Source of the DNA: Candidatus Latescibacterota bacterium
Lineage (GTDB): Bacteria > Latescibacterota > UBA2968
Direction: 5' to 3'
Length of the DNA: 64,000 nt
NCBI GenBank assembly: GCA_965207885.1
Contig: OZ242311.1
Span: 5,792,001-5,856,000 of the forward strand
Part shown: one piece after another, positions 14,742 through 39,708 of the stretch
Layout: every line of letters starts with the position of its first letter
Position numbering within the stretch: position 1 is the first letter of the stretch
Notes under the pieces: model-generated
What the model saw: only the letters and a program-made list of their open reading frames with translations
The model's database searches: none
What the model was told of the DNA's origin: nothing
Position numbers and translations under genes: made by a program

Positions 14742-15860
14742 TTAGAAGGTAACAGCAGCGCTGAGGATATGCACCGAAGAGAAGAAAGCACTATCAAACT
14801 GCTTAAATGCATAATCCACCTTCACGCCCTGACCACCTTCGGTCTTAAACTGCAACCCACCACCCGCAGAGATACCCTCTGTATCGTGGTTGGTCTTGTA
14901 CCCACCTCGCAGCGTAAAGCCGATTGAGGACCCCGCTGCGCGATACGTATATTCGGCGCCGACGTGAATGCGCTCATCAAAATCGATGGGATTGTTCACA
15001 TCCAGAGCCAGGTCCAGATGGTGTGGCACAGGCGTATTGCCCATCATCGAAATCACATCGATGAGCAGGCCCAGGCGGATATTCCTCGGCAACTCAAACT
15101 GCTCCCGCTGATAAACCACCTCTGTGCTAAAATTCTGCACACTCATCGCCATCACCGTATTCCGGAACCCCGTATTGAAATACGTGCCCAGATCAAAGGC
15201 AAAGGCATTCTTGGAATTATCCACCGTCTGCCTGGAGGCTCCCAAAAAGATATTGCCAGTACCCAGGTCCTGATGGGCCATCCTGAGGGTCGCTCCTGCG
15301 GAAAAACGGTCGGTAATTTTAAGACCATAAGCCGCGGAAATGGCATAATTGCTGGTGGTAATCTCGCCCTCGTCTTTGAATCCGGCGCCAGCGGGATTTG
15401 GATCAATTGATGTTCCGTTGACAGTACCCGCATCGAAAGTCACAATCGAAAGACCGAACGTCCCTCTGCCCGGCACATTCACTGCAACGCCCGCGATCAT
15501 ACTCTTGGTATCGACGAGCCAATCGACATAAGTGACATGTGCTTCCCGGCCTTCCATAAAAGCCAGCGCACCCGGATTGAAAAGAATCGCCGAACCACTG
15601 CCGATCAACCCCACCCCGGCACCACCGAGAGCAGCGGTGCGCGCATCGGTGGGAATAGACAGGAAAGCAAAACCAGCCTGCCCGGTCTTGATAAACGTCG
15701 GCGAGGCTTCTTCAAAGCCCGGAACAATGGGATCCAGTTCTCGAACGCGACCATCAAAGTTATCGGTCACGCCAGTCGCAACGCTCCCCTGGGCAAACAC
15801 ATCGCTCGGCATCAGCCCCGCACACACAAGCGCAATCAGAATATATTTTTTCACGATCAT
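14742..15860 (-). CDS. PorV/PorQ family outer-membrane beta-barrel
   Basis: GQAGFAFLSIPTDARTAALGGA...FNPGALA signature; C-terminal Phe. Confidence 0.85.
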   Translation of the reverse strand: MIVKKYILIALVCAGLMPSDVFAQGSVATGVTDNFDGRVRELDPIVPGFEEASPTFIKTGQAGFAFLSIPTDARTAALGGAGVGLIGSGSAILFNPGALAFMEGREAHVTYVDWLVDTKSMIAGVAVNVPGRGTFGLSIVTFDAGTVNGTSIDPNPAGAGFKDEGEITTSNYAISAAYGLKITDRFSAGATLRMAHQDLGTGNIFLGASRQTVDNSKNAFAFDLGTYFNTGFRNTVMAMSVQNFSTEVVYQREQFELPRNIRLGLLIDVISMMGNTPVPHHLDLALDVNNPIDFDERIHVGAEYTYRAAGSSIGFTLRGGYKTNHDTEGISAGGGLQFKTEGGQGVKVDYAFKQFDSAFFSSVHILSAAVTF

Positions 15861-18109: not shown

Positions 18110-21100
18110 TTAGAAGGACCAGCGCACGCCGAGATGGATATCCCGCGGATTGACATAGAACAAATACGACCGCTGTGACATCACGCTCTCATCCAGTTCT
18201 TTGCCCGGCTTGTCGCCTTCTTGCAAATTCCCGCTCGCATCCACGGTCCAGCCCAATGCCTCCATATACTTCTTGAAGTTATTGCCCGAACTCGTACCGA
18301 GATGGGATCGCGTATCCCATATCCGGGATGTAGAAGTCGTGGTAACATTTTTGAAGTTGAGCGGATTGCGAATCTCCAGATAAACCGTTGGCGCCATCTT
18401 TACGTCAAACATCTTGGCAAACCGCAGATCCAGAAGCCTGGTCGCCTGCCACTGTGCGTTATCCACCGAGCGCAGTGCCACGTCGTTGGACGGGTTGTAG
18501 TTGAACCACGACCCCGCCTGATGGCGGTAATAAAGGTTGGCTTCCCAGCCCCCCTTCAACATGCGTTGCTCGCCTCCGTGATCCAGCGACGTGCGGAAAT
18601 TCAGACCAAACTTCAAAATCGGTCGCGCCTTAAAGCGCGGATTCGCACCAGCGGGACTCCTCTCGATCAAACGGTAGGACGCTGTCGATACAGTCTGTGC
18701 GTCGTAGATGCGCTCCCAGCGCACGATGCGCTTGCGCTCGGCGCGGAACTCATAGGACAAAAAGCCCGTCACAAACTGCCCGCGCGCCTTGCGCACAGAC
18801 AACTCGAACCCGCGAATATCCTTCACATTTCCATTCATATGGAAACGCGTGCTGCGTCCCGTGGTATTCTGGATATACACTCTTCCGCGTTCCGTGTCCT
18901 TCTCGATGTCTTTGAAGAACACCGTGCCGCTGAACAGATACTGATTGGCGAAATTCCGCTCGTAGCCCAGTTCATAGGCTATTGTCACGGGCATGTCCAG
19001 CCACGGATTGCCAAACTGCTCCAAAGGCTCGCCCAGACCGCTCTGCGTCTGATACAAATCCACAGAGGTCGGAATCTGTGCAAAGTGACCGTAGTTGAAG
19101 AACAGCTTGCTCTCGGCAGTAATCGGATGCGATATACCAACCCGGGGACTCACCTTCCACTTTGTGGGCGGGCGTATAGCCTCTGCCTTGGAATACAGCA
19201 ACACGGCATTGGAACCCATCCACTCTGCGTGTACCTCGTTGGGAATGTCGAAGTACTTGTCCGGACGGTGAAAGTCCAGGCGCAGACCCGCATTTACCAC
19301 AATCTGGCGATACTCCATGCGATCCTGCAAGAACACACCGCCGTAAAGAGGCGTGCGGACCCAGTAATTGTGGAAGTCAGCCGTATCCGTCACTTCCATG
19401 TTAGCTGGATCATCGATATTCCCCGGACGGAAATTGACGTCTTCCAGGGTCGGATCCTGTACAGAAGATGCAAAACCGCGGATCTCGCGCAGGAAGAAGT
19501 GATGCACCTGCACACCGGCTTTGATCTGGTGATTCGGCGTTACTTGAGACGTAATATCAAACGTATAATCGTCTTCCCAGGTATAAGACCAGTCGCCCGA
19601 ACGCGCCGGGTTGCCGTCGCCACCGCGCATGCGGTAAGCACCTAAGAGATCGAAAGTTCCGGGCTTATACGTAAAGCCCTTGGGACCTTCGTCCAGGATC
19701 ACGGCACCCGCGGCCTGAGCCGCCTGATAGCTGCTCTCGGTAACTTCTTCAACGCGACCATCTGGATATACCGCTGCTGCGGGCACACCGCGCTTCTGCA
19801 GGGGTTGCCACGAAGCCTCAAAGTCGGCCTTACCCACGCGCACCGACAAATTGTAAAACGTCCTGGGAGACAGCGTGTGTGTCCACGTCAAAGTGCCATA
19901 CCGGCGGTTGATCGTTTCGATATTGCTGCCAGACCCCATCGCGAAAATATTCCGCGTACGCAAATTGCTCACTTCAAAAGCAGGCGTGCGGGCAAATGTG
20001 CCCAAAAAGTTCCCGTACTTCGCACCCTGAGACCAGCCCTTCAGGAAGCCCAAAGACAGCTTGGTCGTCGCCGTAGGCGTGAAGATCGCCTTGGCCTGCC
20101 AGGTATCATCGCGATAGTTGGGAACGGCCATCGTCCATGTATAAGCCGACTTTTCCCGGCGCGTGGAAAGCAAGAACGACACCTTGTCCTGCACGAGCGG
20201 ACCGCCAACAGTCACATCGTAGGTATAATCCGCATCGCGGTCTGTGGCGTCGAAGTTCTGCTGATACGGATAGTCCTCATCCTGCCCAAAAGGACCTATG
20301 CCACTGGCTTCGGTCGCGATTCCGCCGACCTTCCGATGCTGGAAATCCCATATTCCCTTGGCTTGCGCAGGCGTCGAAATCACGTCTTCGAAGGGACCGG
20401 CTTTCCATTCGCCAGCAGGTCCACCCTTATCCTGGAATATATTATTCCAGCCAGCAAAATCCGGATTCCCGTCGCCATCTCTATCGGCCGTCGGTGCCAT
20501 GCTCTGGAACCGCCCCACATCCCACCAGTTATCGGTGCTGTACATCGTGGGACCAAAATACTTATTCGCTGCGGGACTCCACCGCAGATCGCCTGCCGTC
20601 GTCCATGCGCGAGGCTCGCGGTTGACCACGTTGATCACACCGCTGCGCACATCGCCGTACTCGGCATTGAACCCGCCCTTCAGAATCTGAACCTCCTGAA
20701 GTGCTGTCTTGGAAAAGGACGAATACGGACGGTTATCCCGGCTGTCTTTCATGCTCACGCCGTCAACCATATAAACGATCTCGGTCTCGTTGCCACCGCG
20801 GATATTCAAACCCCAACTATCCGTATCTATACCCACCTGCGTGGCAAACGCATCGCGCAACCGGGGTCCCACTGGCGGGGACTCGATCTCTTTGGCAGAC
20901 ATAATCACCTGCGTATAAGACACATCCATCTCAACCGGTGGGCGCTCTGCCGTCACCGTAATCTCTGCCAACTCTGCCGTTGTCTCGCCAAGCGAGAAAT
21001 CCAGCGGCGTCGTGCGGTCAATCGAAACCGCCACATCGCGCTGCGTCACAGCGCGATAACCCACCAGCGACGCCGTGACCTCATACACGCCCGGATTGAC

Positions 21101-21316
21101 GCGAATGATGAAGTATTCACCATTGACATCTGCCGTGGCACCCATTCTGGTGCCCACAATCACCACATTGGCACCCGGCAGAGGTTCGCCGGTACTGGAA
21201 TCGGTAATGCGACCCGAAATTTTACCCGTGGTGGTCTGCGCGTCGGCCTGATAAGTCAGCCCAAACCCCAGCGCAATGGCAAGCAAGGTTATAAACCCAG
21301 CTCTAAAACGATACAT
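18110..21316 (-). CDS. TonB-dependent receptor with carboxypeptidase-regulatory-like N-domain
   Basis: GKISGRITDSSTGEPLPGANV; IRGG...YMVDGV; GGFNAEYG..SGVINVV; ends GVRWSF. Confidence 0.93.
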   Translation of the reverse strand: MYRFRAGFITLLAIALGFGLTYQADAQTTTGKISGRITDSSTGEPLPGANVVIVGTRMGATADVNGEYFIIRVNPGVYEVTASLVGYRAVTQRDVAVSIDRTTPLDFSLGETTAELAEITVTAERPPVEMDVSYTQVIMSAKEIESPPVGPRLRDAFATQVGIDTDSWGLNIRGGNETEIVYMVDGVSMKDSRDNRPYSSFSKTALQEVQILKGGFNAEYGDVRSGVINVVNREPRAWTTAGDLRWSPAANKYFGPTMYSTDNWWDVGRFQSMAPTADRDGDGNPDFAGWNNIFQDKGGPAGEWKAGPFEDVISTPAQAKGIWDFQHRKVGGIATEASGIGPFGQDEDYPYQQNFDATDRDADYTYDVTVGGPLVQDKVSFLLSTRREKSAYTWTMAVPNYRDDTWQAKAIFTPTATTKLSLGFLKGWSQGAKYGNFLGTFARTPAFEVSNLRTRNIFAMGSGSNIETINRRYGTLTWTHTLSPRTFYNLSVRVGKADFEASWQPLQKRGVPAAAVYPDGRVEEVTESSYQAAQAAGAVILDEGPKGFTYKPGTFDLLGAYRMRGGDGNPARSGDWSYTWEDDYTFDITSQVTPNHQIKAGVQVHHFFLREIRGFASSVQDPTLEDVNFRPGNIDDPANMEVTDTADFHNYWVRTPLYGGVFLQDRMEYRQIVVNAGLRLDFHRPDKYFDIPNEVHAEWMGSNAVLLYSKAEAIRPPTKWKVSPRVGISHPITAESKLFFNYGHFAQIPTSVDLYQTQSGLGEPLEQFGNPWLDMPVTIAYELGYERNFANQYLFSGTVFFKDIEKDTERGRVYIQNTTGRSTRFHMNGNVKDIRGFELSVRKARGQFVTGFLSYEFRAERKRIVRWERIYDAQTVSTASYRLIERSPAGANPRFKARPILKFGLNFRTSLDHGGEQRMLKGGWEANLYYRHQAGSWFNYNPSNDVALRSVDNAQWQATRLLDLRFAKMFDVKMAPTVYLEIRNPLNFKNVTTTSTSRIWDTRSHLGTSSGNNFKKYMEALGWTVDASGNLQEGDKPGKELDESVMSQRSYLFYVNPRDIHLGVRWSF

Positions 21317-21532
21317 AAACTCCTCCTTTGTTTTCTTCCCCCGGCTTTGGGAAAGATAAGGGAAAAGCCACCCTGGCTCATCCCGCGCAACTTCTCCTGA
21401 CTACCTACTACAACAAAATACTATCAATAAGCCCTTAAACATCACCTCCTTATTAATCCCCTCCCTGTGGTCTTAAAAGCGGGCTTAAATACCCCACCTC
21501 CTTTCGGTCCATGATATTGATCATTATAAACT

Positions 21533-21566
21533 ATAATTTCCGATAAATCCACGTGTCCAATTTAAT
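21533..21566. other. Degenerate lox-like site B (inverted relative to site A)
   Basis: ATAATTTCCGATA-AATCCACG-TGTCCAATTTAAT; 21536-21552 is the exact reverse complement of 21811-21827. Confidence 0.6.
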
Positions 21567-21587
21567 ATGCACCTCGAAACCTGTCAA
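21559..21587 (-). promoter_or_regulatory. Sigma70 promoter for the TonB operon, inside the putative invertible segment
   Basis: TTGACA (21587-21582), 17 nt, TAAATT (21564-21559); same TTGACAGGT start as the 14656 promoter. Confidence 0.65.
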
Positions 21588-21796
21588 GTATTATGCACCA
21601 AATTACGCGACATGTGTTTTTCGATCATAACATATTGTTTTTCAAAAACTTAAATTTTTATCTATTGGAAATCTTAAAAATAACTCGCTGAAATCAAAGA
21701 AGTAAGCCAACACACAAACAAAAATGTCCTGCAATATTCGGCATATCAGCCATTTCATCTGGTCAAATACTAAAGAGCCACAACACTTCATTGCCC

Positions 21797-21829
21797 TTTA
21801 TTTCCGATAAGTGGATTTATCGGAAATAA
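21797..21829. other. lox-like recombination site A (13-8-13)
   Basis: TTTATTTCCGATA-AGTGGATT-TATCGGAAATAA[A]. The last base is restored by 23037 when IS4 plus one TSD copy is removed, which places the site about 100 bp upstream of the recombinase gene. Confidence 0.7.
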
Positions 21830-23027
21830 CATGGTACACGACAAAACTTAAATTGTTTTAAACAGTGGCGGATTACTCAGTAAACGAATGCATATGAGGA
21901 ACTGTTGGGTTTGTTGGTTTATATTGAGCAGGACATACTGCAAATAGTCCAACCCATATCGGAAGAGACTTTTCTCCATCCGCCCGTGATTTTTGATCGT
22001 CAAAGGATTTGTTTTTGCTATCCATTCGCCGATGATATGCGCCCAGATGCAGGCAATGGCCAAAAGCGCGATGAGTTTCTCAATGCGGTCTTGATGTATA
22101 AGATGGGTCTCTTCCAGATTAAATCCTCGACTTTTAAGATTGGCAAAAAGGACTTCAATGCCCCATCGTTTTTTATAGGTATCCAATGCGGCTTGACCTT
22201 TTTGGTTGCTGGCAAGAATGAGGTATTGGTCCTTCAATCTTAGTGCAGACAGATATACAGGCAGGTCATAAACGCGGTGGCGTTTGCACAAGTTGACCTG
22301 CTGATGGATATTAAGATTTTCAAACCGTTTTCTTATGGGGATCTCTCTACCGCCTGATGAGACAAGAGCGTTTTCCTTGATGCGAATAACAAAGGGTATA
22401 TTTTGTGTGTCTAACCACCTAAACCATTCTCTTCCAATAAATTCTCTGTCTGCGACGACAACGCGGATATGCGATTTGCAGATGCAGTTGAGCATTTCTT
22501 GCATCAAATGGATACGCTCATCACTATTGGAATTGCCCCGTTTTTTTAACAAGTGCCAACAGATAGGAAAGGCGACCCCTTCATAGATAATGCCTGCGGT
22601 TAGGATGTTGATATTGAATTTTCCCAACTTCCAATTGGTGCGATCTATTGAGACTATAAAATCCGACTTTATAGGTAATAAGTGCAAGATCAATTGTCTC
22701 ACACACGCATAGGGTAAGGCAAAGTGGGCAAAGAAGCGTTGGATACGACGATAATTAGATTTCTGCTTGACGGTTCCATTGAGTGCGTTTGCCAGTTTCA
22801 TAAAATTGACGCTACGCAATTTTATCAGCGACAATATGAACGCAGCGGTAAACGTTATTCGGGCTTTATGCCAGTGAAAATATCCTTGCATAATCGTTTG
22901 AAGTTCAATAGTTTCAGGAGACATAGACCTGTGCCTTGTTAAGATGAGAAAGGTTTGTCTTGGGACATTCAAACCTAACTCTTTTTAGCTTTTTTCACAG
23001 GTCTTTTATTTTTTGTCGTGTACTATG
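21830..23027 (-). mobile_element. IS4-family insertion sequence, copy 1 (1198 bp)
   Basis: 17-bp terminal IRs CATGGTACACGACAAAA / TTTTGTCGTGTACTATG; 9-bp TSD CGGAAATAA (21821-21829, 23028-23036). Confidence 0.95.
21848..22972 (-). CDS. IS4-family DDE transposase
   Basis: SIDRTNW, VADREF, YKKRWGIEVLFANLK (YREK motif). True start may be ATG 22924. Confidence 0.93.
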   Translation of the reverse strand: MNVPRQTFLILTRHRSMSPETIELQTIMQGYFHWHKARITFTAAFILSLIKLRSVNFMKLANALNGTVKQKSNYRRIQRFFAHFALPYACVRQLILHLLPIKSDFIVSIDRTNWKLGKFNINILTAGIIYEGVAFPICWHLLKKRGNSNSDERIHLMQEMLNCICKSHIRVVVADREFIGREWFRWLDTQNIPFVIRIKENALVSSGGREIPIRKRFENLNIHQQVNLCKRHRVYDLPVYLSALRLKDQYLILASNQKGQAALDTYKKRWGIEVLFANLKSRGFNLEETHLIHQDRIEKLIALLAIACIWAHIIGEWIAKTNPLTIKNHGRMEKSLFRYGLDYLQYVLLNINQQTQQFLICIRLLSNPPLFKTI

Positions 23028-23136
23028 CGGAAATAAATAAAAAGAGACTATCGCATGTTTAATTGATGAATCTAAATCGGATAGCGCAAGCGTCTAATAA
23101 AAACCATCTGATGCACAAGTTTGCAATACTAAAAAA

Positions 23137-24135
23137 ATGACCACAAAAATTAAAGCACCCACCTCCCAATCCATACACCTGCCCGCCTGCAGATGTTCCG
23201 CGCAGACAAGTCACAACGGTCAGACACTCTCAATGCCCGCGGCTGAACTCGCGCGTGCCTCACTCGCTCCTGCTACCATCAGAGCCTATCGGTCTGCGCT
23301 TTATGCCTGGGATACATTTCGCAACAACCGGCCCGAAAATGATACACTCATCGCCGAATATCTAACGGCGCGATATGAAGCGGGAACCAGCCCGGCTACC
23401 TGTACACAAATCGTGGGCGCAATCCGGTTTCGCGCGAAACACCAGGGCTACACCGATCCCATTGGTCCAGCTACCCAGCGCGTATTAGCAGGCATACGAC
23501 GCCGGGGACGAGACCGCGGACGGGGACAAATGGACGGCCTGCGCTGGAATGAAGCAGATGCAATAGTACGCATTGCCCAGCGCGACCAGACCCTCGCCGG
23601 ACTTCGAGACGCGGCCATCATCGCCGTCATGTCTGACGCACTCCTGCGCGTATCTGAATGCGTTGCCCTCAATGTCGAAGATCTTTTGCAAACCGACCTG
23701 CCCGACGGAAGTGCCCGCATTACCGTCCGACACTCTAAAACCGACCAGGAAGGGCGCAGCAGTGTCCTGTACATTGGACCGACAACAGCAAGAGCAGTAA
23801 CGGCCTATCTGAACGCCGCCCAAATAGACAACGGTCCCCTCTTTCGCCGCGTACGCCGCGGCGACCATCTGGGAACCGGGCGACTGACAGACCGCGCAAT
23901 CAGAAACATCGTAAAACAGCGTGCAGCAGCAGCCGGAGTCTCTGGAAGATTTTCGGGGCACTCGCTCCGCATTGGATCGGCACAGTCCCTCGCAACAGCG
24001 GGCGCATCAATTGTCGAAATGCAAATAGCAGGACGATGGCGCGATACATCTATGCCCGCTCACTATGCCCGCGCCCAACTCGCCGGTACTGGTGCCGTAG
24101 CGCGTTTGCGATATGGATGTAAAAACAAAAAATAA
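23137..24135 (+). CDS. Cre-like tyrosine recombinase
   Basis: Catalytic set LLRVSE (R), SKTDQEG (K), SGHSLR (HxxR), GRW (W as in Cre), AHYAR (Y); N-terminal APATIRAY core-binding domain. Confidence 0.9.
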   Translation: MTTKIKAPTSQSIHLPACRCSAQTSHNGQTLSMPAAELARASLAPATIRAYRSALYAWDTFRNNRPENDTLIAEYLTARYEAGTSPATCTQIVGAIRFRAKHQGYTDPIGPATQRVLAGIRRRGRDRGRGQMDGLRWNEADAIVRIAQRDQTLAGLRDAAIIAVMSDALLRVSECVALNVEDLLQTDLPDGSARITVRHSKTDQEGRSSVLYIGPTTARAVTAYLNAAQIDNGPLFRRVRRGDHLGTGRLTDRAIRNIVKQRAAAAGVSGRFSGHSLRIGSAQSLATAGASIVEMQIAGRWRDTSMPAHYARAQLAGTGAVARLRYGCKNKK

Positions 24136-24161
24136 AGCCCCGCACTATACGGGGCTTTTTT
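24134..24161 (+). terminator. Rho-independent terminator after the recombinase
   Basis: AAAGCCCCG-loop-CGGGGCTTTTTT. Confidence 0.85.
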
Positions 24162-24226
24162 GTGATTACTCGTCTCAGGCTCTAAAAAATTTAGAACAAC
24201 TCACCTTTTTGAAGTCACATAGTACG

Positions 24227-24928
24227 TTATTTTTTGCCGCTTTTCAAAACCTCAATCATCACTAATCCGTCTTTATTTTCTTTTATGAATGGAGATGGCG
24301 CAATATCAGGGGGCATAGGAACTAAGCGGTTATACACAAAAGGCTTTTCCACGAAAATTCCCAGGCACCGGCGTTCTGGATAAGCTTCCACTTTAATATC
24401 CTGAGCACTGGGTAAATATATCAGAACAAAATACGCAGAATCATCCTTCGAAATTAAGGTGCTATAGTGGGCTTCTACCTTCTGGATGAAATCTATGTCA
24501 TAAGATAACTCACGATGATAAATACCTCTGTCTTCCCGAACATAGCTACCCGACAAATATTCTTTATAATTCTGATTGAGTTCCCTGATGATCTTCTCAA
24601 TATTATCGCGTAATTCCTCATTATCGCGTAATGGCTTGAGGAATTGCTTAAACAATTCCTCGCGTGATTTCTCATATTTTTTTTCACGAAATTTAGCAGC
24701 TTTTTTAATTAAAAAATGCCTGATTCCGTTTCCGCCAACAAAATGTCTCAGAAACTCAGAAGGAATGATAAGAGCCAAAGAGATCAATACGACATTGTGA
24801 ATAATCTCGTCTGTAAGCTCATTAGACCATCCCACATACAAGAAGCACAGGAACCCTACTATGAAGAGTTCTCCTATCAACCAACGCGAGGAGGGAGCAA
24901 AGCTGTTTGAAGGTGTATCAGGATTCAT
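24227..24928 (-). CDS. Hypothetical membrane protein with C-terminal Hsp20/alpha-crystallin-like segment
   Basis: Two N-terminal TM helices, charged helical middle, then YLPSAQDIKVE...YNRLVPMP...DGLVMIEVLK; low GC. Confidence 0.55.
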   Translation of the reverse strand: MNPDTPSNSFAPSSRWLIGELFIVGFLCFLYVGWSNELTDEIIHNVVLISLALIIPSEFLRHFVGGNGIRHFLIKKAAKFREKKYEKSREELFKQFLKPLRDNEELRDNIEKIIRELNQNYKEYLSGSYVREDRGIYHRELSYDIDFIQKVEAHYSTLISKDDSAYFVLIYLPSAQDIKVEAYPERRCLGIFVEKPFVYNRLVPMPPDIAPSPFIKENKDGLVMIEVLKSGKK

Positions 24929-25250
24929 TTCTAAATTCTTCCCATTGTTTTTTTATGGTTTTTAATAGAGTAAAACCAGCATTTATGATGATAGAAATCA
25001 AAGCCACGATATCAAAAATCGTCACCAAGGTTTTGGTAAATTGCAAAGGTAAATAAGATTCAACCTCTCCAGGGTTTTCTTCTATGGGTATTGTCTCGTG
25101 TAGCCAGAGGACGCAGGCACGAAATACCCTGAGACCTGCTACCACTACCAGAAGTGAAAAAATATCTTTAAAGAAATCAAATAGAAAATTGAAGCGGAGA
25201 TACTTTTCCCTTTGGCTCCTCCAGGATTGAAACAATTGCAAAATATTCAT
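24918..25250 (-). CDS. Hypothetical 2-TM membrane protein
   Basis: Low-GC ORF with two hydrophobic helices; overlaps the next gene by 11 nt. Confidence 0.6.
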   Translation of the reverse strand: MNILQLFQSWRSQREKYLRFNFLFDFFKDIFSLLVVVAGLRVFRACVLWLHETIPIEENPGEVESYLPLQFTKTLVTIFDIVALISIIINAGFTLLKTIKKQWEEFRNES

Positions 25251-25631
25251 ATAAAACCGTTTTTGTACGAAAAAAATACCCGACAGCCGATCCTAACGCA
25301 AATTCTGTAGCCCTTGTTAGGAATGCTATGCTTACAAAATATAACCCTAAAAGGTAATATTAGCCAAATAGATTTCTTGCCCAAGGAACTCAGTTAATAC
25401 GATCTGTTCTCAACCAAAAACGCCTCTACTGCGACCCCGCAGAGTTTCTGCGATCTCATAGGAGAGTATAGATAAACAACACCGTCCTGCGGTATTCGGC
25501 ATTTCTTGGTTATGGACACAGCGTTTTCCGACTTGAATCTGCTGTATCCAATTTATATTGGAGTCTCAATTGTTTTTTCTAAAATAAGCACAATACCCGC
25601 CTAACCTATTTTGCCAGAGCTTATGATAGTA

Positions 25632-38510: not shown

Positions 38511-39708
38511 CATGGTACACGACAAAACTTAAATTGTTTTAAACAGTGGCGGATTACTCAGTAAACGAATGCATATGAGGAACTGTTGGGTTTGTTGGTT
38601 TATATTGAGCAGGACATACTGCAAATAGTCCAACCCATATCGGAAGAGACTTTTCTCCATCCGCCCGTGATTTTTGATCGTCAAAGGATTTGTTTTTGCT
38701 ATCCATTCGCCGATGATATGCGCCCAGATGCAGGCAATGGCCAAAAGCGCGATGAGTTTCTCAATGCGGTCTTGATGTATAAGATGGGTCTCTTCCAGAT
38801 TAAATCCTCGACTTTTAAGATTGGCAAAAAGGACTTCAATGCCCCATCGTTTTTTATAGGTATCCAATGCGGCTTGACCTTTTTGGTTGCTGGCAAGAAT
38901 GAGGTATTGGTCCTTCAATCTTAGTGCAGACAGATATACAGGCAGGTCATAAACGCGGTGGCGTTTGCACAAGTTGACCTGCTGATGGATATTAAGATTT
39001 TCAAACCGTTTTCTTATGGGGATCTCTCTACCGCCTGATGAGACAAGAGCGTTTTCCTTGATGCGAATAACAAAGGGTATATTTTGTGTGTCTAACCACC
39101 TAAACCATTCTCTTCCAATAAATTCTCTGTCTGCGACGACAACGCGGATATGCGATTTGCAGATGCAGTTGAGCATTTCTTGCATCAAATGGATACGCTC
39201 ATCACTATTGGAATTGCCCCGTTTTTTTAACAAGTGCCAACAGATAGGAAAGGCGACCCCTTCATAGATAATGCCTGCGGTTAGGATGTTGATATTGAAT
39301 TTTCCCAACTTCCAATTGGTGCGATCTATTGAGACTATAAAATCCGACTTTATAGGTAATAAGTGCAAGATCAATTGTCTCACACACGCATAGGGTAAGG
39401 CAAAGTGGGCAAAGAAGCGTTGGATACGACGATAATTAGATTTCTGCTTGACGGTTCCATTGAGTGCGTTTGCCAGTTTCATAAAATTGACGCTACGCAA
39501 TTTTATCAGCGACAATATGAACGCAGCGGTAAACGTTATTCGGGCTTTATGCCAGTGAAAATATCCTTGCATAATCGTTTGAAGTTCAATAGTTTCAGGA
39601 GACATAGACCTGTGCCTTGTTAAGATGAGAAAGGTTTGTCTTGGGACATTCAAACCTAACTCTTTTTAGCTTTTTTCACAGGTCTTTTATTTTTTGTCGT
39701 GTACTATG
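38511..39708 (-). mobile_element. IS4-family insertion sequence, copy 2 (1198 bp, apparently identical to copy 1)
   Basis: Same IRs and identical translated transposase; 9-bp flanks AAAAAAATG / GAAAAAAAT do not form an exact TSD. Confidence 0.95.
38529..39653 (-). CDS. IS4-family DDE transposase
   Basis: Identical protein to 21848..22972. Confidence 0.93.
   Translation of the reverse strand: MNVPRQTFLILTRHRSMSPETIELQTIMQGYFHWHKARITFTAAFILSLIKLRSVNFMKLANALNGTVKQKSNYRRIQRFFAHFALPYACVRQLILHLLPIKSDFIVSIDRTNWKLGKFNINILTAGIIYEGVAFPICWHLLKKRGNSNSDERIHLMQEMLNCICKSHIRVVVADREFIGREWFRWLDTQNIPFVIRIKENALVSSGGREIPIRKRFENLNIHQQVNLCKRHRVYDLPVYLSALRLKDQYLILASNQKGQAALDTYKKRWGIEVLFANLKSRGFNLEETHLIHQDRIEKLIALLAIACIWAHIIGEWIAKTNPLTIKNHGRMEKSLFRYGLDYLQYVLLNINQQTQQFLICIRLLSNPPLFKTI

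What the first reader, a model, noticed from the sequence alone, without database searches (positions are those of the whole stretch)
21797..24135. New Cre/lox-like recombinase with its cognate 34-bp site, revealed by removing the IS4
Seen: deleting IS4 plus one TSD copy restores a perfect 13-8-13 palindrome, TTTATTTCCGATA-AGTGGATT-TATCGGAAATAAA, about 100 bp upstream of an intact recombinase with R-K-HxxR-W-Y. Established: loxP has the same 13-8-13 geometry with an asymmetric spacer, and Cre homologs (VCre, SCre, Vika) have their sites next to the gene. The arm resembles VloxP (ATTTC.GA.A) as I recall it, which should be verified. Inference: a potentially orthogonal site-specific recombination system.
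Basis: partly seen in the sequence, partly recalled or inferred. Interest (0 to 1): 0.85.

Follow-up and report, generated by a model that had tools for sequence, protein, structure and literature searches.

The report
Cre-like recombinase flanked by invertible promoter
The palindrome is real and very likely the target of the neighbouring Cre-like recombinase, but it pairs with a second, inverted copy 260 bp away around a promoter, so it looks like an on/off DNA-flipping switch for an outer-membrane receptor gene rather than a lone Cre/lox pair.

Summary
Observation confirmed. An IS4-family element (21830-23027, 9-bp duplication) sits at the outer edge of a lox-like palindrome (21797-21829), about 100 bp upstream of an intact 332-aa tyrosine recombinase. 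That enzyme's best solved relative, by sequence and by fold, is Cre. IS-free orthologous loci in four same-genus genomes carry the complete 34-bp site.

It holds one arm plus the same asymmetric 6-bp core, in inverted orientation. The shared 17-mer occurs only twice in the 6.2-Mb genome.

Three lines point to an inversion switch:
- The core differs between genomes (GTGGAT, GTTGAT, GTTGGA) but is identical in both sites in five of six genomes.
- The 258-bp segment between the sites carries a conserved TTGACA-17-TAAATT promoter. It abuts the partner site and faces a SusC-like TonB-dependent receptor operon.
- In homologous modules of other sponge-associated MAGs the equivalent segment occurs in both orientations, with arms swapped exactly at the core.

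Best reading: an invertible promoter (inverton) run by a Cre-type recombinase, in a Latescibacterota sponge symbiont. Flipping at this locus itself was not seen. The kind is known, but this member and recombinase family appear undescribed in the papers I searched. Use as an orthogonal Cre-type tool remains plausible and untested.

The parts
18110..21316 (-). SusC-like TonB-dependent receptor gene (1068 aa). It is the first gene of a minus-strand surface operon and the likely regulated target.
   Evidence: Pfam CarboxypepD_reg, CarbopepD_reg_2 and Plug. N-terminal match to TIGR04056 SusC/RagA at 56.5 bits, below its cut-off. Downstream on the same strand lie a 718-aa unknown, a PorP/PorV-like gene and a TPR gene.
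21317..21552 (-). Inferred 5' leader of the receptor mRNA. It is strongly conserved among same-genus genomes.
   Evidence: Alignment of five loci (block 'left'). The start point is inferred from the promoter position. No Rfam family matches it.
21533..21566 (.). Site L, the partner recombination site: outer arm 21533-21546, 6-bp core 21547-21552 (reverse complement of the site R core), degenerate inner arm 21553-21566.
   Evidence: the repeat finder I1: arms 21536-21557 and 21806-21827, 22 nt, 91% complementary. Exact 17-mer on the minus strand at 21536-21552. Conserved in relatives.
21559..21587 (-). Sigma-70-type promoter TTGACA-17-TAAATT inside the invertible segment. It abuts site L and faces the receptor gene.
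   Evidence: Consensus scan, 10 of 12. Both hexamers are conserved in all five aligned loci. The same outward-facing arrangement occurs in homologous modules.
21553..21810 (.). Predicted invertible segment: 258 bp between the two cores.
   Evidence: Geometry. The equivalent segments are found flipped in homologues.
21797..21829 (.). Site R, the lox-like palindrome: inner arm 21797-21810, core GTGGAT 21811-21816, outer arm 21817-21829. Its last base was displaced to 23037 by the IS.
   Evidence: I11, I25. The complete 34-bp site is present in IS-free orthologues.
21830..23027 (-). IS4-family insertion sequence (transposase 21848-22972), with 9-bp target duplications at 21821-21829 and 23028-23036. 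It is a recent insertion.
   Evidence: NF033591 at 2.7e-74. 22 identical copies in the genome, 17 of them with an exact 9-bp duplication. The IS-free joint is seen in runs X19 and X1.
23137..24135 (+). Cre-type tyrosine recombinase, 332 aa, intact.
   Evidence: PF00589. Cre E 1.1e-16. Catalytic residues conserved. AlphaFold model pLDDT 77, with Foldseek top hits all Cre.
24134..24158 (.). Bidirectional terminator-like hairpin after the recombinase gene.
   Evidence: It is retained in G017, which lacks the gene.

Best explanation
This is an invertible promoter switch (inverton) operated by a Cre-type tyrosine recombinase.

Proposed mechanism: recombinase monomers bind the arms of site R (a full palindrome next to the gene) and of site L (one good arm, the same 6-bp core in opposite orientation, one degenerate arm). 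The two sites synapse and strands are exchanged within the identical cores. This flips the 258-bp segment between them.
- In the orientation found in all assemblies, the TTGACA-17-TAAATT promoter at the site L end reads out across site L, through a ~236-nt leader, into a SusC-like TonB-dependent receptor operon (receptor ON).
- After a flip, the same promoter would read across site R towards the recombinase gene, and the receptor operon would lose it.

Shown: the two-site geometry, its uniqueness in the genome, conservation and concerted change of the core, the promoter consensus and its conservation, the Cre-type nature of the enzyme, and both orientations in homologous modules elsewhere.

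Inferred: that this copy flips, that the promoter is used, and that the IS now standing between site R and the gene alters the switch.
For: 1. Geometry. A 22-nt inverted repeat at 21536-21557 / 21806-21827 has 248 nt between its arms. The exact 17-mer of core plus arm is present only twice in the 6.2-Mb genome, in opposite orientation.

2. Concerted change of the core. In G000, G007 and G015 both sites have GTGGAT, in G004 both have GTTGAT, and in G006 both have GTTGGA. The inner arm of site L varies freely. In same-genus genomes that lack the recombinase, the site L core drifts to TTCTTC, ATCATC or TTCAAC.

3. Promoter. It scores 10 of 12 against the consensus on the minus strand at 21587-21559, abutting site L, and both hexamers are conserved in the five aligned loci. 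No promoter-like site was found between site R and the recombinase start (0 found in 22980-24200).

4. Direct proof of flipping in homologues.
- In MAG record OZ241875.1 a ~206-bp segment just upstream of the recombinase gene is inverted in L041 relative to L020, L034, L063 and L088, at 87-94% identity, while the flanks stay collinear.
- The inner arms are swapped exactly at the core. The sites have the same CCGATAA-N6-TTATCGG build as here.
- Across the 80 loci, 12 of 399 collinear pairs show such an inverted piece: L041 against 11 loci, and L067 against L076.

5. Family trait.
- An inverted repeat of at least 17 of 20 lies within 700 bp upstream of the gene in 20 of 75 loci, against 0 of 75 shuffled regions.
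- 14 of those 20 segments hold a promoter-like site. In the listed cases it lies within about 9 nt of an arm and points outward. Only 58 of 400 shuffled segments hold one.

6. Upstream divergent genes in other modules include cadherin-like/fn3 and Big_1 surface proteins.

7. The enzyme is Cre-type with all catalytic residues.
Against: - Flipping at this locus was not observed. All five loci compared (G000, G007, G004, G015, G006) have the same orientation.
- Logan contigs of four runs showed no strand-change joint. Contigs drop rare variants, so this is weak.
- A pattern scan of JGI metagenome contigs for either junction found only 4 unrelated hits.
- In the sixth recombinase-bearing relative (G001) the two cores agree at only 4 of 6 positions.
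- The site L arm and the promoter also persist in same-genus genomes that lack the recombinase. The arm may therefore have another role, or be a relic of a locked switch.
- 55 of 75 homologous loci showed no strong inverted repeat by my criterion.
- Promoter use in this phylum is unproven.
- The IS may have impaired the switch in this strain.
Confidence: 0.72

Rival explanations
1. Stand-alone Cre/lox-type pair. A single palindromic site next to its recombinase would serve dimer resolution, cyclisation or integration of a mobile element. The upstream half-site would be incidental.
For: - A perfect 13-8-13 site adjacent to a Cre-type gene.
- Many homologues show one palindrome upstream and no partner within 3 kb by my scan: 30 of 38 loci.
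- The family is multi-copy within genomes.
- A 19-44-bp direct repeat flanks site R, the recombinase and two small ORFs.
Against: - The partner site shares the exact asymmetric core, is unique in the genome, is conserved, and changes in concert with site R.
- The locus is chromosomal and syntenic in six same-genus genomes.
- Homologous modules are caught in both orientations.
- The scan chose the wrong palindrome in some loci. In L034, for example, it picked a GC-rich hairpin, so it undercounts partners.
Confidence: 0.1
2. A decayed or locked switch. The module once flipped, but in this strain it is frozen, because the IS separates the recombinase gene from the only nearby promoter or otherwise disturbs site R. 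The sequences are then relics.
For: - The IS lies at the outer edge of site R, between it and the gene.
- No promoter-like site lies between site R and the start codon.
- Relatives have lost the recombinase by at least three different deletions while keeping the promoter in the receptor-facing orientation: G003, G017 and G020.
Against: - The recombinase ORF is intact with all catalytic residues.
- Site R keeps 13 of 14 bases of the outer arm, and both cores are identical.
- All 22 IS copies are 100% identical, so the insertion is recent.
Confidence: 0.12
3. Operator sites, not recombination sites. The arms would bind a regulator (the recombinase acting as a repressor, or another protein) that controls the receptor promoter, without DNA rearrangement.
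For: - The arm ATAATTTCCGATAA persists upstream of the receptor gene in same-genus genomes without the recombinase.
- A third, arm-like motif lies inside the segment at about 21664-21674.
Against: - It does not explain identity and concerted change of an asymmetric core in inverted orientation.
- It does not explain the exact arm swap seen in L041 against its paralogues.
Confidence: 0.05

Closest known systems
Cre/loxP of phage P1 and the Cre-type recombinases used as tools (VCre, Vika, Dre, Nigri, Panto and the eight of Jelicic et al. 2023, PMC10250229)
   Same: - Two-domain Cre fold and catalytic R-E-K-H-R-W-Y.
- A 34-bp target of two 13-bp inverted arms around an 8-bp asymmetric spacer, close to the gene.
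- GATA next to the spacer and T at the seventh arm position counted from outside. Passages of PMC10250229 report these two features for active Cre-type targets. How that paper numbers positions is my assumption.
- The arm is identical to the P1 lox arm at 8 of 13 positions.
   Different: - Only about 23-30% identical to Cre.
- Chromosomal, not on a phage or plasmid.
- Two natural sites in inverted orientation, one with a degenerate inner arm, bracket a promoter. The native reaction would be inversion, not cyclisation or resolution.
- Activity and freedom from host factors are untested.
Invertible promoters of Bacteroides outer-surface and SusC/SusD-type loci, run by adjacent tyrosine recombinases (Tsr; Weinacht et al. 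2004), and fimS with FimB/FimE of E. coli
   Same: - A short promoter-bearing segment lies between inverted repeats.
- A tyrosine recombinase gene lies alongside.
- The regulated gene is a surface or outer-membrane protein.
- The host belongs to the wider FCB group.
These likenesses rest on my recollection of those systems. I saw Weinacht 2004 only as an entry in the reference list of PMC11602134.
   Different: - The recombinase here is closest to Cre, not shown to be related to Tsr or Fim enzymes (not tested).
- The sites are lox-like palindromes with a 6-8-bp core.
- The same module recurs in several candidate phyla of sponge symbionts, in many copies per genome.
Xer (XerC/D, XerA) and integron integrases
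   Same: Same superfamily (PF00589). Weak hits to the XerA, XerC and XerD models.
   Different: Scores lie far below every curated cut-off (63 against 220, 56 against 335, 49 against 330). Solved Xer proteins match at E 0.038 or worse, against 1e-16 for Cre.

Membership tests
Cre-type tyrosine site-specific recombinase | Catalytic Arg-Glu-Lys-His-Arg-Trp-Tyr in register with Cre | tested here: met
   R171, E174, K201, H275, R278, W301 and Y310 are aligned to the Cre motifs. They are invariant or nearly so in 23 homologues. Cre residue numbers are as quoted in PMC10250229.
Cre-type tyrosine site-specific recombinase | Closest solved relative is Cre over both domains | tested here: met
   phmmer E 1.1e-16, query 57-324 against Cre 54-338, with Xer at 0.038 or worse. 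Foldseek: all chains listed through rank 30 are Cre or Tre, E 3e-13, TM about 0.52.
Cre-type tyrosine site-specific recombinase | Target of two 13-bp inverted arms around an 8-bp asymmetric spacer, near the gene | tested here: met
   Window 21797-21829 plus base 23037. The complete site is present in IS-free orthologues, for example L004 1360-1393.
Cre-type tyrosine site-specific recombinase | Recombines its minimal site without accessory proteins | not testable with these tools
   Needs a reporter assay.
Inverton (invertible promoter) | Two recombination sites in inverted orientation sharing the crossover core | tested here: met
   The cores are identical in 5 of 6 recombinase-bearing same-genus loci and agree at 4 of 6 positions in G001.
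Inverton (invertible promoter) | Promoter inside the segment, reading out across a site into a gene | tested here: met
   Consensus match 10 of 12, conserved. The same layout occurs in 14 of 20 homologous segments. This rests on a consensus match; transcription was not measured.
Inverton (invertible promoter) | Both orientations exist in nature at this locus | tested here: inconclusive
   - All five loci aligned have the same orientation.
- No strand-change joint in contigs of 4 runs.
- The metagenome pattern scan was uninformative.
- Raw reads were not available.
Inverton (invertible promoter) | Both orientations exist in homologous modules | tested here: met
   L041 against 11 loci and L067 against L076. 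In L041 against L034 the arms are swapped at the core.
Xer / integron integrase | Reaches the curated family score | tested here: not met
   All NCBIfam Xer and XerA models score far below their cut-offs.
Integrative mobile element (integrase with attL/attR) | Element bounded by direct repeats of the core site | tested here: not met
   The two lox-like sites are inverted, not direct. A separate 19-44-bp direct repeat (21726-21744 / 25484-25502, longer in G007 and G020) flanks site R, the gene and two ORFs, and remains unexplained.

The most novel reading that the evidence does not exclude
The window holds one copy of a portable, self-contained phase-variation cassette. It consists of a Cre-type recombinase, two minimal lox-like sites, and an outward-facing promoter that toggles between the recombinase gene and a divergent surface-protein gene.

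The cassette has spread, in many copies per genome, across several candidate phyla of sponge symbionts (Latescibacterota, Poribacteria, Nitrospinota, Acidobacteriota and unclassified MAGs). If the sites are as minimal as they look, the family would also supply many naturally orthogonal, accessory-free invertases, each with a known target.
Probability: 0.35. Interest if true: 0.7.

Novelty: new member of a known kind. Interest (0 to 1): 0.5.

Why it matters
Three reasons:

- Phase variation by promoter inversion is well studied in gut Bacteroides and enterobacteria. My searches of the held library found no paper describing it in sponge symbionts or in Latescibacterota or Poribacteria. A switch on a SusC-like receptor and other surface proteins would point to population heterogeneity in nutrient uptake, phage defence or host recognition inside sponges.

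- The recombinase family is large: 1938 proteins at E <= 1e-3 among the 8000 scored. Each member appears to come with its own readable target and, often, a partner site. That makes it a natural catalogue of Cre-type enzyme and site pairs for genome engineering.

- The palindrome-near-gene route used by Jelicic et al. (PMC10250229, passages seen) gave about 50% active pairs. The extra evidence here, co-varying cores and flipped paralogues, should raise that rate.

Tried and rejected
1. Reads. Logan contigs of runs X15, X18, X19 and X1 laid on 20700-23400 gave no strand-change joint. All runs were kept as contigs only, so this says nothing about rare flipped molecules.

2. Loose end. A loose end in X19 at 21828 joins the outer arm of site R to letters resembling the last codons of the recombinase gene and its terminator. 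I could not resolve it. It may be a relative that lost the gene.

3. Metagenome scan. A pattern built to catch either junction state found 4 contigs. None is similar to the window.

4. First palindrome scans of homologous loci. These picked some wrong hairpins, for example a GC-rich stem in L034-type loci. I replaced them with an inverted-repeat scan with shuffled controls.

5. N-terminal divergence in G001. I considered that the diverged arms in G001 go with a diverged N-terminus. The protein is 73% identical throughout, with one 28-aa insertion, so that idea is not supported.

6. Shared downstream partner gene. The ORF after the recombinase here and the one in L034 are unrelated. The L034 type carries an HTH_17 gene, and other loci carry housekeeping genes.

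7. Rfam found nothing credible in the leader or around the sites.

8. A second promoter-like site (TGGACA-18-TATAGT, 21559-21530) is not conserved in relatives. I treat it as chance.

9. VloxP likeness was not tested, because no VloxP sequence was available from a tool.

- Supplementary files of papers are closed. The list of about 500 putative pairs in PMC10250229 and the inverton tables of PMC11602134 may already include members of this family.

11. Papers. For PMC11602134 and PMC10250229 I saw passages only. For all other papers I saw search listings and abstract starts only. Weinacht 2004 I saw only as a reference-list entry, and its content is recalled.
Full report
**What is in the sequence**

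- An IS4-family element occupies 21830-23027. Its transposase lies at 21848-22972 on the minus strand (NF033591, 250 bits against a cut-off of 152). Its terminal inverted repeats are 23 nt at 87%.
- It is flanked by the 9-bp duplication CGGAAATAA at 21821-21829 and 23028-23036.
- The genome holds 22 identical copies of this IS and 17 more at 84%. Of the 22, 17 have an exact 9-bp duplication, in AT-rich targets of no common sequence. The insertion here is therefore recent and not aimed at the palindrome.

Left of the IS stands TTTATTTCCGATAAGTGGATTTATCGGAAATAA (21797-21829). Positions 21798-21810 and 21817-21829 form a perfect 13-nt inverted repeat with 6 nt between (I11). Removing the IS and one duplicate adds the last base and gives the 34-bp 13-8-13 site. 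This is not only arithmetic:
- The whole site stands unbroken in IS-free relatives, for example L004 1360-1393.
- Contigs of runs X19 and X1 join 21820 to 23028 directly.

The recombinase gene (23137-24135, 332 aa) starts 99 nt after the restored site.

**The enzyme**
- Pfam gives only PF00589.
- All Xer and XerA models of NCBIfam score far below their cut-offs.
- Against solved structures the best match by sequence is Cre (E 1.1e-16, query 57-324 on Cre 54-338). Of the 20 listed matches, 17 are Cre or Tre, and the three Xer entries come at E 0.038-0.23.
- An AlphaFold model built on 23 homologues (mean pLDDT 77) finds Cre or Tre in every chain listed through rank 30 of the PDB search (E 3e-13, TM about 0.52), ahead of XerA, IntI, XerH and lambda Int.
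- R171, E174, K201, H275, R278, W301 and Y310 align with the catalytic residues of Cre and are conserved in the family.
- Identity to P1 Cre is only 28-30% over about half the protein by tblastn. The best plasmid-borne relatives reach 32-36%.

So "Cre-like" is justified for both fold and chemistry.

At 21533-21566 lies a second site, ATAATTTCCGATAAATCCACGTGTCCAATTTAAT.
- Its first 14 bases are an arm.
- The next six (ATCCAC) are the reverse complement of the site R core GTGGAT.
- The rest is only a weak arm.

The repeat finder reports arms 21536-21557 and 21806-21827, 22 nt, 91% complementary, with 248 nt between (I1). The 17-mer of core plus arm occurs twice in the window with no mismatch. 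It occurs twice in the whole 6,228,721-base genome at up to two mismatches, once on each strand. Because the core is asymmetric, the two sites are in inverted orientation. Recombination between them would flip the 258 bp between the cores (21553-21810).

**Relatives with the recombinase**

The organism is a Latescibacterota MAG from sponge or marine metagenomes (record titles; run labels). Six of 20 other genomes of the genus gave a match to the recombinase at E <= 1e-40. Five of these are orthologues (83-95% over the matched part). The sixth, G010, holds only a 48% paralogue, and G006 holds such a paralogue as well.

Four orthologue-bearing genomes (G007, G004, G015, G006) have the same layout without the IS: receptor gene, leader, site L, segment, site R, recombinase. 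The core is the telling part:
- GTGGAT in both sites of G000, G007 and G015;
- GTTGAT in both sites of G004;
- GTTGGA in both sites of G006.

Meanwhile the inner arm of site L differs in every genome. Two sites that must exchange strands within the core are expected to change together in just this way.

The fifth relative, G001, is a partial exception. Both of its outer arms have changed in the same way (to TTTCTTTTTA), but its cores agree at only 4 of 6 positions. Its recombinase is 73% identical, with a 28-aa insertion.

**Relatives without the recombinase**

All 21 genomes of the genus have the receptor gene and its leader. Most that lack the recombinase still have the site L arm and the promoter region. 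The losses have different end points:
- G003 lacks the equivalent of 21692-25631.
- G017 lacks 21775-24112 but keeps the last ~20 nt of the recombinase ORF and the terminator.
- G020 keeps the inner arm and core of site R, then jumps, after 19 unmatched bases, to 23967 inside the gene.

Different deletions argue for repeated loss of an ancestral switch. In each case the promoter is left facing the receptor gene. In these genomes the site L core has drifted to TTCTTC, ATCATC or TTCAAC, as expected once the partner is gone. The persistence of the arm itself is not explained by that and is listed against my reading.

**The promoter**

A consensus scan of 21250-21830 finds TTGACA (21587-21582), 17 nt, TAAATT (21564-21559) on the minus strand, 10 of 12. 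The region as a whole holds no more promoter-like sites than shuffles do (2 found against a mean of 1.7). Its weight therefore comes from three other facts:
- Both hexamers are invariant in the five aligned loci.
- It lies inside the segment with its -10 box overlapping the inner arm of site L.
- It points out across site L towards the receptor gene, whose start is at 21316.

No promoter-like site was found between site R and the recombinase start. After a flip the same promoter would therefore face the recombinase gene.

The receptor (1068 aa) has CarboxypepD_reg and Plug domains and an N-terminal SusC/RagA-type match. It is followed on the same strand by a 718-aa unknown, a PorP/PorV-like gene and a TPR gene.

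**Evidence from the wider family**

The recombinase belongs to a large family. There are 1938 proteins at E <= 1e-3 among 8000 scored candidates, mostly 50-59% identical. In GTDB genomes, 548 of 598 candidate stretches were confirmed, and the best 80 loci come from Latescibacterota, Poribacteria, Acidobacteriota, Nitrospinota, Binatia, Gammaproteobacteria and unclassified MAGs, often with several copies per genome.

Comparing copies within genomes gave the strongest result.
- In record OZ241875.1 a ~206-bp piece just upstream of the gene is inverted in L041 relative to L020, L034, L063 and L088, at 87-94% identity, while both flanks are collinear.
- The boundaries are inverted repeats: L034 2653-2679 and 2839-2865, L041 2670-2696 and 2856-2882.
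- The sequences show that the inner arms have changed places exactly at a 6-bp core.
- These sites are built CCGATAA, six bases, TTATCGG. This is the same inner arm motif as in the window.
- A TTGACA-17-TAACTT promoter abuts one site and faces the recombinase in L034 and the opposite way in L041.

Systematically:
- 12 of 399 collinear locus pairs show such an inverted piece: L041 against 11 loci from several MAGs, and L067 against L076 in a Poribacteria genome.
- An inverted repeat of at least 17 of 20 within 700 bp upstream occurs in 20 of 75 loci, against 0 of 75 shuffled regions. At 16 or more the figures are 33 against 2. Five loci with less than 700 bp upstream were left out.
- In 14 of those 20 segments there is a promoter-like site. 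In the listed cases it lies within about 9 nt of an arm and points outward. Only 58 of 400 shuffled segments hold one. L034 and L041 fail my -10 rule and count as misses.
- The genes divergent from these modules include a cadherin-like/fn3 protein and a Big_1 protein. 6 of 10 have no Pfam match.

**What was not found**
- No flipped copy of this particular locus. The five loci compared agree in orientation.
- Contigs of four runs show no strand-change joint.
- The metagenome pattern scan hit only unrelated DNA.
- Raw reads were not on offer.

Flipping here is therefore inferred from geometry, concerted change and homology.

**Comparison with what is known**

As an enzyme and site pair this meets the tested marks of a Cre-type system. 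It also shows the two target features that passages of PMC10250229 report for active Cre-type targets: a GATA-type motif next to the spacer and T at arm position 7 (the numbering is my assumption). The arm matches the P1 lox arm at 8 of 13 positions.

As a genetic device it is an inverton of the kind known from fimS in E. coli and the Tsr-controlled outer-surface loci of Bacteroides. Those likenesses are recalled. Weinacht 2004 was seen only in a reference list.

Searches of the held library found no paper on invertible promoters or phase variation in sponge symbionts, Latescibacterota or Poribacteria, and none linking "Cre-like" recombinases with invertible promoters. The DeepInverton paper does not mention these groups in its main text. 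Its supplements, and those of PMC10250229, could not be opened.

**Verdict**

The best explanation is a Cre-type promoter-inversion switch on a SusC-like receptor operon (confidence 0.72). It is a new member of a known kind. A broader and more novel possibility is that it is one copy of a portable inverton cassette family in sponge symbionts. Its promise as an orthogonal recombination tool stands but is untested.

Noticed in passing
window 21830-23027 and 38511-39708; 22 places in G000: A recent burst of one IS4-family element. The genome holds 22 copies at 100% identity and 17 more of a relative at 84%. Of the 22, 17 have exact 9-bp duplications in AT-rich targets.
   Followed up: yes
window 21726-21744 and 25484-25502 (longer, 34-44 bp, in G007 L117 6203-6236 and G020 L116 3383-3426): A direct repeat flanks site R, the recombinase gene and two small unknown minus-strand ORFs (24227-24928, 24918-25250). 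It may mark the edge of a module that was gained or duplicated. It is unexplained.
   Followed up: partly
window about 21664-21674; L116 1724; L118 1237: A third, arm-like motif lies inside the segment, in the orientation of the site R outer arm: CTATTGGAAAT here, and TTATCGGAAT in G020 and G017. It could be an accessory binding site.
   Followed up: no
run X19, loose end at window 21828: A 76-nt contig joins the outer arm of site R to letters resembling the last codons and terminator of the recombinase gene (about 24116 onward). It may come from a relative with a solo site and no gene.
   Followed up: partly
L116 (G020) 1865-1900: A deletion removes most of the recombinase gene. Its left end falls at the boundary between the core and the outer arm of site R. 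This suggests an aberrant recombinase-mediated event.
   Followed up: partly
L014 (G001) 2617-2640 and 2810-2845: In this relative both outer arms have changed together (to TTTCTTTTTA), and the recombinase carries a 28-aa insertion after residue 68. The cores agree at only 4 of 6 positions.
   Followed up: partly
L034 3897-4724 and L041 3956-4783, minus strand: The multi-copy modules of MAG OZ241875.1 carry a convergent 276-aa HTH_17 (excisionase-type helix-turn-helix) gene after the recombinase. It is absent from the window.
   Followed up: no
window 21317-21552, minus strand: The long conserved leader of the receptor mRNA contains three AAGGAGG-like motifs, one followed by a possible 13-codon ORF. 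No Rfam family matches it.
   Followed up: partly
window 32126-33370: A 414-aa protein made almost wholly of ankyrin repeats. This is a hallmark of sponge symbionts.
   Followed up: no
window 14742-15860: A PorP/SprF- and PorV-like outer-membrane gene lies in the same operon as the receptor. This hints that the switch also governs a type IX secretion-linked surface function.
   Followed up: no
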